Below, piece after piece: positions 11,036-40,784 of a DNA stretch of 64,000 bases (its first letter is position 1; each line of letters starts with the position of its first letter). The notes below the pieces were generated by a model. That model was not told where the DNA came from and did not search any database. It was given only the letters and a program-made list of their open reading frames with translations. The stretch is taken from positions 31,186,001 through 31,250,000 of the forward strand of contig NC_091477.1 of the NCBI RefSeq assembly GCF_036971445.1, read 5' to 3'. The translations under genes and the position numbers were made by a program. The DNA is from Narcine bancroftii (taxonomy: Eukaryota).

Positions 11036-11353
11036 CTGGAATTAATAGGGATCTAAGGCCATAATTTAAAAAAAATAACCAAAGGGGATTTTAAATAGAA
11101 TTGGCTGACAAACAAAAGACACAAACAAAAAGGATTGCATGTGTGTAATAATTTAATGATTTAAAGTAATATTTGAAAAATGTCACTTAAAAAAGTTGCA
11201 GAAAGAGGTGTCCAATTCTTACTTTACATTCAAACATTAAGTATCATTTTCTTGTCTTTATTAAATTTAGTCAAATATTAAAGTGAATACATCAGTACAG
11301 TTATGCTTGAAACACATTTAAAAAATAATATGAATTTCATTATCTAAATGCTA

Positions 11354-12490
11354 TTTTTTTTTTGGCTTGGCTTCGCGGACAAAGATTTATGGAGGGATAT
11401 GTCCACGTCTGCTGCAGGCTCGTTGGTGACTGACAAGTCCGATGCGGGACAGGCAGGCACGGTTGCAGCGGTTACAAGGGAAAATTGGTTGGTTGGGGTT
11501 GGGTGTTGGGTTTTTCCTCCTTTGTCTTTTGTCAGTGAGGTGGGCTCTGCGGTCTTCTTCAAAGGAGGTTGCAGCCCGCCGAACTGTGAGGCACCAAGAT
11601 GCACGGTTGGAGGCGATATCAGCCCACTGGTGGTGGTCAATGTGGCAGGCACCAAGAGATTTCTTTAAGCAGTCCTTGTACCTCTTCTTTGGTGCACCTC
11701 TGTCTCGGTGGCCAGTGGAGAGCTCGCCATATAACACGATCTTGGGAAGGTGATGGTCCTCCATTCTGGAGATGTGACCCACCCAGCGCAGTTGGGTCTT
11801 CAGCAGCGTGGATTCGATGCTTGCGGATTCTGCCAGCTCGAGTACTTTGATGTTGGTGATGAAGTCATTCCAATGAATGTTGAGGATGGAGCGGAGACAA
11901 CGCTGATGGAAGCGTTCTAGGAGCCGTAGGTGATGCCGGTAGAGGACCCATGATTCGGAGCAGAACAGGAGAGTGGGTATGACAACGGCTGTGTACACGC
12001 TGATCTTTGTGTGTTTCTTCAGGTGATTATTTTTCCAGATTCTTTTGTATAGTCTTCCAAAGGCGCTATTTGCCTTGGTGAGTCTGTTGTCTATCTCTTT
12101 GTCGATCCTTGCATCAGATGAAATGGTGCAGCCAAGGTAGGTTAACTGGTTGAATGTTTTGAGTTCTGTGTGCCCGATGGAGATGTGGGGGGCTGATAGT
12201 CATGGTGGGGAGCTGGCTGATGGAGGACCTCAGTTTTCTTCAGGCTGACTTCCAGGCCAAACATTTTGGCAGTTTCTGCAAAACAGGACGTCATGCGCTG
12301 GAGAGCTGGCTCTGAATGGGCAACTAAAGCGGCATCGTCTGCCAAGAGTAGTTCACGCTCTTGTGTCTTGGTGTGAGCTTGCAGGCGCCTCAGATTGAAG
12401 AGACTGCCATCCGTGTGATACCGGATGTAAACAGCGTCTTCATTGTTGAGTTTTTCATGGCTTGCTTCAGCATCATGCTGAAGAAGATAG
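11354..12490 (-). mobile_element. RTE-clade LINE, 5'-truncated, fairly young
   Basis: RT motif LLADDAALVAHSE and ORF 11387-11998 (YTAVVIPTLL...ERFHQRCLRSIL...CNRCNRACLSRIGLVSHQRAC); A-tail at 11354-11363. Confidence 0.92.
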
Positions 12491-13069: not shown

Positions 13070-13692
13070 GATAGGTGGAGAGGCAAGAAGTGAGAGAGAA
13101 ACAGATGGATAGATCAGGAGAATGGGTAAAGAAGTGGGAAATGAAATACCATGTTGGTAAGTGTATGGTCATGCACTTTGGTAGAAGGAATAAAAGGGAA
13201 GACTATTATTTGGATAGGGAGAAAATTCAAAATTCGAAGGTACAAAGGAACTTGCGAGTCCTCATGCAGTATATCCTGAAGGCTAAGCTTCAGGTTGAGT
13301 CAGTGGCGAAGAAGGTGAATGCAGTATTGGCATTCACATCAAGAGGAAACGGATACAAGAGCAGGGATGTGATGTTGAGGTTAGAGGCTCCGATAGCTCA
13401 GTGGTTAGAGCACTGGTCTTGTAAACCAAGGCCACGAGTTCATTCCTCATTTCTGTGAGGGGCGATTGACAAAGTGGCAACTCTCTGTCTTCCTTACAGT
13501 AGATAAGGTTAAATGAATCTCACGTATGTTATCTTCTAAATGTAGTATTACGTGACAAGATTGGAACCTTTACCTTGGAGGCCTCACTTGGAGCACGGGG
13601 TAGAGTTTTAGGCATCCTTATTTAAGAAAGGATGTGCTGGCATTGGAGAGGGTTCAGATAAGATTCACAAGAATTATTCCTGGAATGAAGGG
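13070..13692 (+). mobile_element. CR1 LINE RT fragment interrupted by a tRNA-derived SINE
   Basis: KKWEMKYHVGKCMVMHFGRRN...KKVNAVLAF; resumes after 13577 with gaggcctcacttggag...ttggagagggttcag (RPHLE, LERVQ). Confidence 0.8.
13386..13576 (+). mobile_element. tRNA-Thr(UGU)-derived SINE with LINE-type 3' tail
   Basis: Head GGCTCCGATAGCTCAGTGGTTAGAGCACTGGTCTTGTAAACCAAGG closely matches vertebrate tRNA-Thr(TGT). The 3' acceptor stem is missing and is replaced by a tail ending ttacgtgacaagattggaacctttacctt. Confidence 0.75.
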
Positions 13693-14313
13693 AACCAGAG
13701 CACTTGGGGAAAACCCATGCAGGTCAAGGGTAAAACATACAAACTCCTTATGGATTTGACACTGTAATAGCTTCCTGTTGACTGCTATGTAACCGTGCTA
13801 ATCTAACACAGAAGTCTGCAATGAAAAACATCCTTATTTTTGGTTTTGCTGATTTCCTAAAAGGAACAGAAAGAGGACCAGTGTATCATCCTAAACTTCT
13901 CTAAGCATTGTTCAATACTTACTAAACTATTCCTTTTTTTAAAAAAAGCTGCATTAGTAAGAGTTTCCATTTAAAAGGCATTTTACTGAATTCATGGGAA
14001 ATTTTAAATCCTTCACAAACATTTTTTTTTAAAATCTAGTCACAAGTAGTTAACATTCAGCCCCAAAACAAAAACAGTCCAATAATGCTGATGTTGCTTC
14101 TGGGATAAGCATTGGGTAGAATAATGTTCTAATGTTCAGAATAAAGTCACTAATGTTCAAATCCTGCATTATTAGCTAATGGCTTCTATCCATTGCGTGG
14201 GACTTTGATTTCATATTTTAGCTGATTAATGATGTAAATATAATTAGGAGATGCACTTTATTTTGCTCTTTTACCCATGAAAATTGAACCTGAGGGCAAG
14301 TTGAGATACTCAC

Positions 14314-17470: not shown

Positions 17471-19310
17471 TTTAATTTGCCTGTAAAGGGACAAAGAGGT
17501 GCTACTAGACTCGCACCCTGACCAAGAAGAGGAAGAGTAGGGGAAGAGTGTCCATTCATGGACATCAAGTGTCTGTGGACTCCATCATCTTCTCTGATGC
17601 TATTGCCTCTTGTGCTTCCAAAGATGGACAGCCTCCTGTCCGATCCAATTGTGAAAGCTGGCTCAGGCATCCTAGTCACACTCCTTGGCACCTGGTTTGA
17701 ACCCCCAAGACGATTAGAAAGCTGTTAATGTCCAAGGCTCTTTGGCAGCCATGCTCATTATTGGCATCATCATGTATCCTGGTCCTGATACCTGGTTACT
17801 ATGAGCCAGTTTGCACCAGCTCCCAGACAGGCCACAACATAGTGTGTGCAATTTGGCCATTGAGCATTTCCACTGTTTTTGTCTCTTCCTCAGTAGGGTC
17901 TTCTCCTTCTCAGTAGGGTGGTGTACTCCCGCTCTGGTGCCTTGGAAGCTCCGCAAAACCCCGCAACTCTCATGAGACAGGCTGCCAAGCATGGGTTCCA
18001 CTACCTTGGACACAGAACTTCCTCAGTTCTCCGATGTTCAGAGATCACAAGCTGTTTGTCCCTGCCTGATGTTATCAGCAGAATGACAGGGAATAAGGGC
18101 CCTGCAGAAATTGATGAAAGATACATTTCCATTCCTCACTCTTCCTGGTCTGCACTGGTACTGTTGTTACCACAGCAGCGCTGCCATATTCCTTTGTATC
18201 TTAAATGCATGTGCTCTAATCTTTCAAATTTTTACCCTGTAAAGAAGACAACCCTCATAATAAACAAGACTCTCAAAATTTTAAAAACCTTAATCAGTTT
18301 CCTCTAGCCTCTAATGAGTAAGAACAATCAATCCAAGTTTGTCCAACCCCCTATTGTAGATCATACATTCCAACCCTGGCAGCATTATGGCAAGTTTCTT
18401 CTCTCCTCTTACCAAAACTTTCAAATTCTTTTTGAAATGGGGAGAACAGAATTTCACACCACACCCCAAAACTTCATCTTCAGGACCAGTCTGCCATGAG
18501 GGCCTTGGTGAATGCCTTAAAGTCTTGAACTTCCTCTGCCATGATTTGGGAGGGCGCTCATCCCACCAAAGTTGGCAGGATTACTCATGCCATGGCTCTC
18601 AAAATCTTTTTGATTGTCAATGCTCCTCATATCATATCACTATTTACTGAATAGACTTATGTCACCACTGGTAAAAAGCCTCAACTTTTGAGGATGAATG
18701 TCACTCCAGGGGCACAGGTTTGGTAGAGGGACACAAAACTCTTGAGGACATATCTCAAACCCTCATCTGCTTGAGGAATAATTGAAATATCAGCAATCTT
18801 CTCAGCCAAGAACTTCCCATCTTGGTCTTTGTTTTGTTATATTCCTGGGCAATTATTAAAAAAAAATCTCCTTTCACCTGCGATTCATTCTGATATGGAC
18901 CCATTATACTGTATATATCCCTTACTGTGCACAGAATAATTCACTAATAAAATAACCTGACCAAGGAGACTAACTGTCCCTTTGCAGAGAGACCTTAAGT
19001 AGATGATCATTTGTCTTCCATCAACACAAGTAGGAAGTTCAGAATGCTGCATCAACCCTAAGCAAACAAAACTTTATTTTTCAAAGTTAACAGACAAACT
19101 CAACATTCCCTAAAGAATTTCAGACAATGAAATTTGCTCTTTGAAGTATTAAAGGTTGAGAACTAGCTATTTTGTCAATGCCATTTTTGCAATACAGTAT
19201 GGTTGTTTAGTTGTTTCAATATCTCAAATTCTTATTGAGCTCTCTTTATGAACCCCAAATTTAATTCAGCAATGAGTCCACTTCCCTCTGGGAGGGAGGG
19301 AATCTAACTT

Positions 19311-19664
19311 AAAAAAAAATGTTTGAGGCTCTGAAAAGAGCCCTTGGGTTTTTGGTTTGTTTGTCCACACTTTGAGGAGCTTTACTTGGAGCTGGTGTTC
19401 TTCGTCACTGCCTTTGTCCCTTTTGACATGGCATGCTTGGCCAACTCCCCAGGGCAACACGACAGTCTGGATCTCCCAGGAGCTGATGCTGATATCCAGG
19501 TGAAGCTGCTTCATCACTTTGTAAATATTGATGGGTTAACTCTCCTTCATCACCCGCCTGCGCTTCTTGCCCACTGGTTTGGCCAAGGTTTTCTTGACGT
19601 CCTTCTTGGGAGCTGCTTTCTGCAGCTCAGGCATTCCCTCAGTCACTTTCAAACACAAAAATCA
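19311..19664 (-). pseudogene. Processed histone H2B pseudogene (replication-dependent type) with 11-bp TSD
   Basis: ATG at 19634: MPELQKAAPKKDVKKTLAKPVGKKRRRVMKES*PINIYKVMKQLHLDISISSWEIQTV, then after a frameshift PGELAKHAMSKGTKAVTKNTSSK* (TAA 19382-19384). Histone stem-loop follows. TSD GAATCTAACTT at 19300-19310 and 19665-19675. Confidence 0.93.
19327..19342 (-). other. Histone 3' stem-loop (SLBP-binding element)
   Basis: Minus strand GGCTCTTTTCAGAGCC preceded by an A/C-rich flank (CCAAAAACCCAAG); canonical 6-bp stem and 4-nt loop. Confidence 0.9.
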
Positions 19665-20094
19665 GAATCTAACTTGAAGAGTATGTGGTTGCAAACATCT
19701 CAACAACTGCACTTCAATGACCATCCAATTAATCCAAATATCAATCGCCTTTTGAATCCAGAGAAAGATTAATAGTTTCCAAGAGTTTAGTTTTCATTAG
19801 GGTCTAGCATATTTCCCTAGCTTGCACCAATGTACAAGGAAATTTAACCCTTTTTTCAATAAATGCAACGATCATGTCAAACTATCAATGGGAGGAATTA
19901 ATCAAGACTCATTCTGTTGATTTGGGGAAATTTCTTGCTGAAATTATAACCCCAATATAATAAGCCTTCACATCACAAAATGACACAGATCCAACTTGTG
20001 CTTTACTATGCTGTATTTTTGGTCAGTAGGTTTTATCCCAACACTGCCTGCTATTAAAATGGGTACATTCCATAATGATAATGTTTATCGTCAT

Positions 20095-20835
20095 GCAATA
20101 CACAAGAGCGTTGGAAAAACTCAGCAGGACACTCAGAATCCATAGGAAGTAAAGGGTGACAAATGTTTTAGGTCTGAGCCCTTCATCAAGGTATGAGCAA
20201 AAAGCAGACAGGCACCTGAATAAAAGTGGGAGGAGAGGAGGAAGGAAAGGACAGGTGGAGGATTACAGGCCAGCAGGCAAAAGGTCATGGGGGATATACT
20301 GCAGGTGGAAGGGTAGAAGAGAAAAAAAATTGAGGTGCTGGGTGAGGGAATGGTTCTCTGAATGGAGAGGGAAGGGGGTGGGTATCTCTAGGAAAGAAAA
20401 CAGGGGGATATGGAAAGAGAGGGACTCTGGAGAGGGGGTTAATGGGAACTAGAGACAACTATATTAATGTTGTCTGGTTGAAGAGTGACCGGACGAAACA
20501 TTAAGTATTGTTTCTCCAACTTGTGGGTAGTCTCAATTGGCTGTACATGAGGCCATGGATAGACCTGTTGGTGTAGGAAAGTGTGTGTGGGATTAAAATG
20601 TTTGCCACAGGGAAGTCCCTGTTATTGCTGCAAACAGAGCAAATGTGCTCAATGAAATGATCTTCCAGTCTGCAGACAGATTCTCCAATGTAGAGGAGGC
20701 CACACTAGGAGCACCCAATGCAGTGAATGACTCTTGCAGATTCACAAGTAAAGTGTTGTTTCACTTGGAAGCATTGTTTGGAGCCCCAAATGGTGGTGAG
20801 GGAGGAGGTTTGGGTGCATGTGCGGGGTTACAGAG
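20095..20835 (-). mobile_element. Penelope-like element remnant (GIY-YIG endonuclease region + terminal repeat)
   Basis: Minus strand 20640-20790 reads FQVKQHFTCESARVIHCIGCS*CGLLYIGESVCRLEDHFIEH (GIY-YIG). Terminal repeat with a decayed hammerhead motif at ~20157-20192. Confidence 0.8.
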
Positions 20836-38347: not shown

Positions 38348-38927
38348 CAGGAAGGCATGCCCAAGGTTTCCTTGTGAAATACGATGGAGAACTGGTGCAC
38401 CTCCTGCTTTTCAGGGAAAGCTACAACAAATGATTTTATTTCACCAGAAAAGGCTGGACTCCTTCAACTGGTTATGCAGCCTTTATGCACGAAAATGGAT
38501 GATGTTTCAGTTAGTTTTTCAGAAGTAGAACAAATGGGGTGGCCCAAATCAGTACTTGCAAGTGTTAGAAACACATTATGCAACTTTGTCAGTGTAATGT
38601 GTGGTAAGCAGCAAGGCTATGGGACAAGTCCAGCACATGTAGAGCAAGAAAATCCATGCTAATTTAAAGTTGAAGAATTCAAAATCAAATCTGTTCTCCA
38701 GTAATTCTAGTTCTTGGAAAAGTTTGGGGAGGATATAATTAAATGTTTTGATTTTTATTATTATTCTTATTACAAATTCTAATTTCTCCATTTTATGAAT
38801 TCTAATCATCAGCGCTAAGTTGTATCCAAGACAAAGCACCTTAATTACCTTAAAGCACCTTAATTACACATTTGGTCAAAAAGCTCACAGTAAATGCCAC
38901 TGTCAGAAATGGGAAGTGTTGACATAC

Positions 38928-39149
38928 CTGTGACTTTATCTATGGTTTCTTCTGTGACATGATTCATCTGATGTACCCATTCACCATTGCATTTGAAGTA
39001 TATCTGTGTGGCTGGTGTTGCTTTGCAGACCAAAGTGACAGGTTTGTTTTTCACAATGTACACATCTTCTGGTTCAACAAGAAAATGAGGCAAGGCTTCT
39101 GAAGAGGAGACTGGGATGGTTTCTGATTGTGTTTCACTGTATTCTGCAT
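38928..39149 (-). CDS. unc5a: Netrin receptor UNC5 (most likely UNC5A) coding exon, N-terminal part of Ig1 (equivalent to exon 2)
   Basis: Translates (D)[73 protein letters not shown](G). [19 protein letters not shown] is UNC5A-like. Acceptor ttttttcccccttcAG|AT, donor ACAG|GTATGT; 222 bp, phase 1-1. Confidence 0.93.
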
Positions 39150-40784
39150 CTGAAGGGGGAAAAAACGTGAGAATTTCATTTTCTTGTTCTTGTAAGAAAA
39201 CAAGGACTTGAGAGGCAGGCATTGCATTACTATCTGACTCAGAAAGATGGTGACGATATTCATTTTTGGGTCAGTGCCAAATTAAGAGCCAATTAATTTA
39301 GTGAGGGTCAAGGAAGGAATAAATCACAAACTATAGGTTTTCTTCCAAAAATGAATCAATCAAGTTAATATAATCCAAAGATTTATTGTAATTTTTAGTG
39401 ATTTCAGTTATCATTGAGGAAATTATTTTTCCAATTTCTCTTGAGCCATTTAAAAATAATCATAGCAAAAAGTTCTTTCCAGTGTTCTTTCTTAAAAAGT
39501 CTTCCATATATTTAATACATTAATTTACTAATTGCAGCATTCAGCAAAAAAAGTGTTCAAGATAGTTTTCCAATTAAGTTTTTGATGATCAAAATATAAT
39601 ACTGATTAAAACACCTAGCTGTAATAACACATCATATAACATGTAACCAATATCTGATGAAATTTTCTCATAACTTTATATTCATTGAATTATGCAGCAT
39701 GGAAATACTACCTCCTACCAAATGTCATATGGGATGTCTATTGAAGCGAATTTTATTTTCTGCATTTGACCCATATCCCTCTCAGCCCTTCCTATACAAG
39801 TACCGGTCCAAATGTCTTTTGAACATAGAAATTATACTCGTCTCCAACACTTTCCCAAGCAGAAAGAACTTCCATCTTAAAGACAGCACAGGAGTTTTCC
39901 ATAACTTTTATGGATACAAATTTTACATTGAGTTTTCACCAATGACTCAGCTCTGCCAATGTGCATTAGCTGACACTGAAAATACATACACTGTATTGTT
40001 TCCCCAATGAGTCAAGACCAGTTTAAATAACATTAAAAGTATCTTTGGCCAAGGTATAATACTGTTTTTAACAATGAATGTGTTTCAGGTGGTCATTACA
40101 AGCTACTGAATTGCAAACTTTACAATGCCACCAATTTTTTGAATTTGCTCAGCATTAATCTGTAATTAACTGAGGTAATTCTCTATCAGGAGATAGAAGA
40201 TCTGTAAGATTATGCTTTTCAAATATTAATTTCTGAAGAATTCCATTCAATGGATAAATTCCATATTTTTTCTTATGTATAGGTCATATTAAAAGAGCCT
40301 CATTTCAAAGTAAATTTTCACCCAATTTTCACCACCACTGAAAATTGCTAGAATAACTTTTTTTTTTAATATACAAAATTCAGTTGTTTTACAGAGGGAA
40401 GATTTGAAATTCCTAAATGGTTATATGGTTATTAGTTTGCAGAGAAAAAAACTAACATGGGCTTGAAAATTCCATTTAAAATTTTACTAGTGAATGCACT
40501 GCACCTAATCGAGTTGACTACATTACATTCCTCAACTGAATTTGAAAAACCCTCAGCATTCTAAAAATTGTCCAGTTCAGATCCAGAAAATTCAATTCTG
40601 ACTCTCAAACACCAGGTCTTGCTGAATTCAGTCCACTAGCCAGACTGAACACCTAGGATTAGCATCTCCTCCCCAATCTTTCCCCTAAGCATGGTGGACT
40701 AAATAAGCTGAACCGAAACACCCAGTAGATATGCTATGAGGTGGATCAGCGATTCCTACCAGTAATGCTCTGACAGCTTGAGCT

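What the first reader, a model, noticed from the sequence alone, without database searches (positions are those of the whole stretch)
19300..19675. Histone H2B retrocopy ending in stem-loop + T9 instead of poly(A): possible fossil of an oligouridylated mRNA
Seen: between perfect 11-bp TSDs, the insert runs from a short 5' UTR (TGATTTTTGTGTTTGAAAGTGACTGAGGGA-ATG) through H2B and the stem-loop to TCAAACA-TTTTTTTTT, then the TSD. There is no promoter, no poly(A) and no obvious downstream element (HDE). Established: replication-dependent histone mRNAs lack poly(A) and are 3'-uridylated by TUTases during turnover, while L1-type retrotransposition normally primes on poly(A). Inference: a non-polyadenylated, perhaps U-tailed, histone mRNA was retrotransposed by a LINE that does not need poly(A). 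Caveat: 7 nt follow the stem versus the usual 5, so the Ts could be genomic read-through or untemplated RT additions.
Basis: partly seen in the sequence, partly recalled or inferred. Interest (0 to 1): 0.7.

Follow-up and report, generated by a model that had tools for sequence, protein, structure and literature searches.

The report
Histone retrocopy with eroded A-tail
A dead, pasted-in copy of a histone H2B messenger RNA sits in an intron of a UNC5 gene, and its odd run of nine T's is likely an ordinary A-tail that turned T-rich, as seen in other pasted-in RNAs of this genome, rather than a fossil uridine tail.

Summary
A 354-bp broken H2B copy (minus strand, 19311-19664) lies between perfect 11-bp duplications, from the 5' UTR to stem-loop + 7 nt + T9, with no promoter or downstream element. 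No parent gene has the T-run. The oligo-U reading is weak. Human U-tails start within 3 nt of the stem or inside it, whereas here a non-parental AACA comes first, and the target primer ends in TT, which pairs with A. An in-genome control decides most: of 41 duplication-flanked U6 retrocopies (U6 RNA ends in U), none has a T-only end, all have added A-rich sequence, they use the same site type, and 4 carry T6-T10 runs inside the tail, one abutting the duplication. Best reading (0.5): an ordinary LINE-made retrocopy of an A-tailed histone mRNA whose tail became AACA-T9-AA. Rivals: filler copied from a 17-nt match 5.3 kb away (0.15), U-containing RNA tail (0.13), read-through priming (0.12), LINE T-run end (0.10). 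The empty site could not be tested. This scan earlier found tailless histone retrocopies in other shark-type genomes.

The parts
19665..19675 (-). 5' copy of the 11-bp target-site duplication; site reads CTTC|AAG in mRNA sense
   Evidence: same site type as U6 retrocopies
19635..19664 (-). H2B 5' UTR, starting about 30 nt past the TATA box of parent genes (start site inferred from spacing)
19382..19634 (-). Broken H2B coding sequence: in-frame stop 19538-19536, about 105-nt deletion at 19489/19488, 9-nt and 8-nt deletions; at most 83% identical to any aligned parent
19343..19381 (-). 3' UTR of the C17-cluster H2B type
19327..19342 (-). Intact histone stem-loop
19320..19326 (-). TCAAACA: read as TCA (remnant of the processed mRNA end ACTCA, AC lost; inferred) plus non-parental AACA
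19311..19319 (-). T9 run, absent from all parent genes seen; likely part of a decayed A-tail
19300..19310 (-). 3' copy of the target-site duplication, beginning with AA
14016..14032 (+). Exact 17-nt match to the tail plus first 2 nt of the duplication, inverted, 5.3 kb away (possible template in a rival reading, or chance)
38908..39156 (-). UNC5 Ig-domain exon (approximate limits); with a ZU5 exon 78 kb left of the window on the same strand it places the retrocopy in a UNC5 intron, in sense orientation (inferred)

Best explanation
This is a dead, full-length copy of a stem-loop H2B mRNA between 11-bp target-site duplications, likely inserted by this genome's L1-type retrotransposon from an RNA that likely carried a short A-tail, which then likely turned into AACA-T9-AA. 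Steps: (1) a LINE endonuclease nicks at CTTC|AAG, leaving a primer ending in TT (site shown; enzyme inferred). (2) The primer pairs with an A-tail of about 13-15 nt behind the normal mRNA end ACTCA; the tail was either put on the mRNA, as in Xenopus oocytes, or copied from LINE poly(A) before a jump onto the histone mRNA (inferred). (3) The reverse transcriptase copies the mRNA to its 5' end (extent shown). (4) The promoterless copy decays (stop and deletions shown), and the A-tail gains a C and a T-run, as A-tails of U6 retrocopies do here (pattern shown in U6; applied to this copy by inference; whether by micro-inversion or substitution plus slippage is untested). It has no likely function.
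For: U6 control: of the 48 best U6 matches, 41 have a duplication; 41 of 41 have added A-rich sequence after the U6 T-run and 0 of 41 end in T alone; 9 of 41 have an inner T-run of 3 or more and 4 of 41 of 6 or more (T10 in L225; T7 directly against an AA-starting duplication in L242); 13 of 41 tails hold a C. Their duplications are 8-17 bp in 40 of 41, start with A in 32 of 41, and follow TC in 12 and TT in 12, as here. Inner T-run length rises with divergence (Spearman 0.42, p 0.006). An abundant RT-encoding LINE (RVT_1) ends in a T-run of 4 or more followed by A in 15 of 30 copies. The other dispersed copy that ends at its stem-loop, an H4, has 4 extra A's there (L075). Xenopus oocyte histone mRNAs have about 10-nt A-tails behind an intact stem-loop (PMC11997800 passages).
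Against: Only 3 A's before and 2 after the T9 remain, and those 2 belong to the duplication, so the A-tail itself is not seen. A 2-nt deletion (AC) must be assumed. The age trend weakens when tail length is controlled (tails of 15 nt or more: rho 0.40, p 0.058; Fisher p 0.09, 0.18 and 0.39), and the T10 tail L225 is in a young copy, so the T-runs could be laid down at insertion or at RNA level. The 5 other dispersed copies with candidate duplications are tailless, so tails are not the rule for histone copies here. Adenylation of histone mRNA in this animal was not tested.
Confidence: 0.5

Rival explanations
1. Templated filler: the nicked primer first copied 15 nt of nearby genomic sequence (window 14016-14030, inverted), pairing through TT/AA, then jumped to the histone mRNA end through a shared CA.
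For: Exact 17-nt match incl. 2 nt of the duplication, 5.3 kb away; 138 copies in 3.33 Gb; best match among 310 other T-runs in 264 kb; 0 of 167 control runs have such a same-length match within 5.3 kb and 0 of 156 within 10 kb. Templated inserts at L1 sites are reported (passages) and ORF2p copies DNA and jumps templates (passages).
Against: Found after the fact in low-complexity sequence; with run length free the chance is about 2% (0.0017 per pair x 14 runs); 3 of 125 controls match within 32 kb. Reported templates are typically within 15 bp and rare (22 among about 3,600 insertions). Two T9 runs would have had to stay identical while the insert decayed. The same 15-mer turned up unrelated near L088. 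A 7-nt match 17 bp from the nick is expected 1.7% of the time and leaves T8 unexplained.
Confidence: 0.15
2. U-containing RNA tail: the mRNA was oligouridylated (first reader; about 0.05) or carried a mixed A/U tail made by terminal transferases (about 0.08), and the T9 is its direct copy.
For: T9 is in no parent. Histone mRNAs are uridylated by TUT7 (PMC5066620 abstract and section 5). Some young U6 copies already have long inner T-runs (L225), which a mixed RNA tail would explain.
Against: In human cells most ends are ACC, ACU or AUU, 3 nt past the stem, and decay intermediates are cut into the stem; here the stem is intact and 7 nt, 4 of them non-parental, precede the T's. The primer ends in TT and cannot pair with U. 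0 of 41 U6 copies were inserted from a bare U end. No second T-tailed histone copy among 23 other dispersed copies; the one T9 after an H4 copy is the A-run ending an opposite-strand LINE.
Confidence: 0.13
3. Read-through priming: an uncleaved histone transcript was primed internally 16-17 nt past the stem, either H2B's own downstream element or an H1-like gene followed by a switch to H2B through the shared stem-loop, and the spacer later mutated to T's.
For: In parents AAAG sits 16 nt past the stem, the same register as the duplication's AAG. An H1-like gene (L259) matches tail plus duplication best of 63 post-stem sequences, 10 of 16 in the spacer. Internal priming makes tailless histone copies in humans and here.
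Against: H2B spacers match at only 4-8 of 16 while the rest of the insert is about 83% identical (binomial p 0.002 for 8 or more mismatches). The H1-like match has a chance of 2-6% and needs an extra switch.
Confidence: 0.12
4. LINE end plus jump: the enzyme began on its own RNA, copied the A's and the T-run that end this genome's L1-type family, then jumped onto the histone mRNA, giving a minimal histone/LINE chimera.
For: 15 of 30 LINE copies end in T4-T10 followed by A. Chimeras exist here: H4/CR1-like (L075) and U6/RTE-like (L212).
Against: That family has AAAG, not AACA, before its T-run, and none of 30 loci with AATAAACA-T8 formed a LINE-end family.
Confidence: 0.1

Closest known systems
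Poly(A)-tailed snRNA processed pseudogenes (group II of Doucet et al. 2015, PMC4476161; passages)
   Same: A normally non-polyadenylated RNA, full length, followed by an A-rich tract and flanked by duplications at an L1-type site; the same two routes to the tail (adenylated RNA, or early switch from L1 poly(A)).
   Different: The RNA is a histone mRNA, and the tail is now mostly T.
Tailless retropseudogenes, including 51 human histone-derived ones (Noll et al. 2015, PMC5322556; passages)
   Same: Histone mRNA copied into the genome with a duplication and no clear poly(A).
   Different: Those are primed internally and end in parent sequence; the 51 histone cases are 5'-truncated. This copy is full length, keeps the stem-loop and has 13-16 non-parental nucleotides.
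Oligoadenylated maternal histone mRNA of Xenopus oocytes (PMC11997800 passages; Sanchez and Marzluff 2004 seen only as a citation)
   Same: About 10-nt A-tail behind an intact stem-loop, in the germ line, where a heritable insertion must arise.
   Different: Not shown for this animal; here only a DNA copy with a T-rich tail.
L1 insertions with 5' poly(T) from twin priming (Meyer et al. 2010, PMC2837659; abstract)
   Same: A T-run inside a duplication that derives from an A-tail.
   Different: There the T-run is at the 5' end of an L1; here it is at the 3' end of a sense-strand mRNA copy.
TUT7-uridylated histone mRNA (Lackey et al. 2016, PMC5066620; abstract and section 5)
   Same: Non-templated T/U behind the histone stem-loop.
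   Different: Mostly 1-2 U within 3 nt of the stem, or tails on ends cut into the stem; no AACA spacer.

Membership tests
LINE-mobilised processed pseudogene | Flanking target-site duplication | tested here: met
   11 bp exact; null 9 of 20,000
LINE-mobilised processed pseudogene | Limits match the mRNA; no promoter or downstream flank | tested here: met
   Homology starts about 30 nt past the parents' TATA box and stops at the stem-loop; the start site is inferred, not mapped
LINE-mobilised processed pseudogene | Endonuclease-type site (pyrimidines | A-rich) | tested here: met
   CTTC|AAG; U6 copies follow TC in 12 and TT in 12 of 41 and start with A in 32 of 41
LINE-mobilised processed pseudogene | 3' A-rich tail | tested here: inconclusive
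   AACA-T9-AA; similar T-runs in 4 of 41 U6 tails
LINE-mobilised processed pseudogene | Empty orthologous site with one copy of the duplication | not testable with these tools
   No related genome held; only one sample found, with no empty allele listed
Tailless retropseudogene | Ends in parent sequence that pairs with the target, no added tail | tested here: not met
   4-8 of 16 post-stem matches to parents
Copy of an oligouridylated histone mRNA | U-run starts within about 3-5 nt of the stem or inside it, directly on templated sequence | tested here: not met
   7 nt, with non-parental AACA, precede the T's (rule, human cells)
Copy of an oligouridylated histone mRNA | T-run absent from parent genes | tested here: met
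Copy of an oligouridylated histone mRNA | Local machinery inserts RNAs from a bare U end | tested here: not met
   0 of 41 U6 copies with a duplication
RNA/LINE chimera (U6/L1 type) | 3' part recognisable as a LINE end | tested here: inconclusive
   T-run + A fits the local LINE, AACA does not

The most novel reading that the evidence does not exclude
The T-runs in this tail and in the U6 and LINE tails of this genome were put on the RNAs by uridylating and adenylating enzymes, so the genome's retrocopies are a fossil record of mixed U/A tailing in the germ line, and this locus is the first fossil of a uridylated histone mRNA.
Probability: 0.1. Interest if true: 0.6.

Novelty: new member of a known kind. 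Interest (0 to 1): 0.22.

Why it matters
As best read it is one dead pseudogene and matters little. Two points carry over. In this genome a T-run at the end of a retrocopy cannot be taken as a U-tail, because A-tails here often hold T-runs. And a full-length, stem-loop-bearing, tailed histone copy would be indirect evidence that oocyte-type oligo(A) histone mRNA exists in this lineage. If the tails were instead mixed U/A RNA tails, retrocopies would record germ-line RNA decay marks and show that uridylated RNA can still be inserted.

Tried and rejected
Parent with a genomic T-run: none (84 genome-wide with exact stem-loop patterns; 27 distinct post-stem sequences with at most T3; no other contig over 19311-19326). 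A repeat family ending in the tail 17-mer: first 20 of 138 matches share no upstream sequence and have no duplication over 8 bp. A LINE family ending in AATAAACA-T8: first 30 of 171 matches show none. A second T-tailed histone copy (L084/L134): the T9 ends an opposite-strand LINE. The 7-nt inverted repeat between tail and own 5' UTR: no simple mechanism, treated as chance. H1-like gene L259 as parent: coding region and 3' UTR do not match. Empty allele: runs found were one sample only, no result. Rfam found only a tRNA-like hit in the window. Pfam found nothing on five short fragments, including two H2B pieces of 30-31 aa; H2B identity rests on DNA alignment. H3.3 retrocopy L205 has an A-rich end without a T-run and no clear duplication: uninformative. 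Paper searches (listings only) showed no report of a T-tailed histone retrocopy or of T-run decay of A-tails in cartilaginous fish; the library lacks most subscription papers, and table S3 of PMC5322556, which lists the 51 human histone copies, was not opened.

Full report
Observation. The window is part of a 3.33-Gb animal genome, G000:C21:31186001-31250000; an earlier, unchecked note of this scan calls the animal a ray. The sequence shows an exact 11-bp repeat at 19300-19310 and 19665-19675 around a 354-bp insert; chance gave such a repeat in 9 of 20,000 random flank pairs. On the minus strand the insert is a 30-nt 5' UTR, a broken H2B coding region, a 3' UTR, an intact stem-loop, TCAAACA and T9. 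Against parents it has a stop, a deletion of about 105 nt between CATC repeats, and 9-nt and 8-nt deletions; best identity is 83%. Homology begins about 30 nt past the parents' TATA box and ends at the stem. A UNC5 Ig exon near 39,000 and a ZU5 exon at C21:31108263, both on the minus strand, put it in a UNC5 intron by inference. Short-read contigs of one sample, possibly the source, match with no difference and show no empty allele.

Is the T-run in a parent? No. Stem-loop followed by T5 within 10 nt occurs only here. A relaxed stem-loop followed by an A/T run gave 9 places: this copy, an H4 copy (L075), an H1-like gene, five H3 genes and one H3-derived gene. Of 28 distinct H2B-type post-stem sequences, one is this copy and one proved H3-derived; none of the other 27 has more than T3 in 17 nt, and nearly all read ACTCA-CAGTCTC followed by the purine-rich downstream element. 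These searches need a near-exact stem-loop and miss decayed ones.

Other histone copies. DNA searches with H2B, H4, H3 and H2A (38-40 candidates scored each, of 38-63) gave 23 other matches outside clusters, H3.3 exons left out; all were fetched. Five have candidate duplications of 8-13 bp, three with a mismatch and not tested against a null (L044, L076, L078, L079, L082); all five stop before or at the start of the stem-loop with no tail. L075 is a nearly full H4 mRNA ending at stem + A, then AAAA, then a CR1-like 3' fragment (family name recalled). The T9 after H4 copy L134 is the A-run ending a LINE on the other strand. The rest are genes, fragments or copies without clear ends. No second T-tailed copy was found.

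The control that shifted my reading. U6 RNA ends in U, so its retrocopies test whether U-ended RNA inserts directly. All 48 scored U6 matches (the best of a far larger candidate set) were fetched. 41 have a duplication; 7 do not (two probable genes, one U6/RTE-like chimera, four A-tailed with no duplication found). Of the 41, none ends in T alone; the duplications start with A in 32 and follow TC or TT in 24, like CTTC|AAG here; 9 have an inner T-run of 3 or more, 4 of 6 or more, and in L242 a T7 abuts an AA-starting duplication, the geometry of this locus. Inner T-run length correlates with divergence (rho 0.42, p 0.006) but also strongly with tail length (rho 0.78); among 23 tails of 15 nt or more rho is 0.40, p 0.058, Fisher tests are not significant, and the T10 case is young. 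So T-runs in A-tails are shown; that they arise after insertion is only suggested. An abundant LINE with a reverse transcriptase domain (L1 clade by recalled motifs, endonuclease not tested) ends in T4-T10 followed by A in 15 of the 30 best copies.

Mechanism. The primer implied by the duplication ends in TT and needs A in the template. I read the 3' end as the processed mRNA end ACTCA with AC lost, then a 13-15-nt A-tail that became AACA-T9-AA (0.5). An A-tail has precedent: Xenopus oocyte histone mRNAs carry about 10 A's behind an intact stem-loop (PMC11997800, passages; PMC12803260, passages), and A-tailed snRNA copies arise from adenylated RNA or an early switch from L1 poly(A) (PMC4476161, passages). 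Against it, the A-tail is not seen and a deletion must be assumed.

Rivals. Templated inserts are known, typically within 15 bp (10.1101/2024.08.27.596794, passages; PMC11702581, passages; PMC10830420, passages): 0.15. (b) A U-containing RNA tail: human ends are mostly ACC, ACU or AUU, and decay intermediates are cut into the stem (PMC5066620, abstract and section 5), which fits neither the intact stem nor AACA; a mixed A/U tail is not excluded: 0.13. (c) Read-through priming: register fits but the spacer is too divergent (p 0.002); an H1-like gene fits better, with a chance of 2-6%: 0.12. (d) A jump from the LINE's own T-run end, AACA unexplained: 0.10. Several of these matches have chances near 1-2% and were found after the fact; they exclude each other, so most are coincidence.

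Comparison and verdict. It works like a group II A-tailed RNA pseudogene and meets three of five processed-pseudogene features, with the tail inconclusive and the empty site untestable. It is not a tailless retropseudogene (PMC5322556, passages), nor a 5' poly(T) twin-priming product (PMC2837659, abstract); chimeras are reviewed in PMC13174262 (passages). Listings showed no T-tailed histone retrocopy; an unopened supplement of PMC5322556 could hold one. New member of a known kind; interest 0.22.

Noticed in passing
L075 = G000:C21:10122500-10123120 (+): Nearly full H4 mRNA copy ending at stem-loop + A, then AAAA, fused to a CR1-like LINE 3' fragment; no clear duplication. Looks like a histone/LINE chimera.
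   Followed up: partly
L212 = G000:C29:57394670-57394850 (+): Perfect U6 fused to an RTE-like 3' end, with what looks like a duplication; matches the RTE-like end at window 11350-11420. U6/RTE chimeras are reported in lizard.
   Followed up: partly
L211-L258: At least 41 young, full-length, A-tailed U6 retrocopies with duplications; the first look gave about 335,000 rough candidates, unexplained. Many tails hold TTT-T10 runs or AAAT/AGAT repeats.
   Followed up: partly
L136-L164: Abundant L1-like LINE (3,995 candidates) whose copies end in AATAAAG, a T-run of variable length and a short A-run.
   Followed up: partly
L040 (C11:252.33 Mb), L041 (C15:26.97 Mb), L035, L038, L042, L043: Tandem arrays and single units with a histone stem-loop and a downstream element only about 5-8 nt away, with little or no coding frame; several look like decayed H3 pieces, L035 like a TATA-driven non-coding unit.
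   Followed up: partly
L259, L128, L129, L045, L046 (C5:180-182 Mb): A cluster of divergent histone genes with stem-loops: two H1-like, two H2B variants, an H2A variant; the H1-like gene L259 lacks a clear purine-rich downstream element.
   Followed up: no
L089, L090: H3 3'-end fragments with stem-loop and downstream flank inside the same repeat, possibly captured by a DNA transposon.
   Followed up: no
window 13393-13576: tRNA-headed SINE-like element inserted in a CR1-like fragment.
   Followed up: no
window 20075-20400: Very high-copy repeat; contig depth above 170,000 against about 10 for unique DNA.
   Followed up: no
L205 = G000:C1:142882700-142883700 (-): Spliced H3.3 retrocopy, 94-96% identical to the gene on C8, ending in an A-rich tract within the 3' UTR.
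   Followed up: partly
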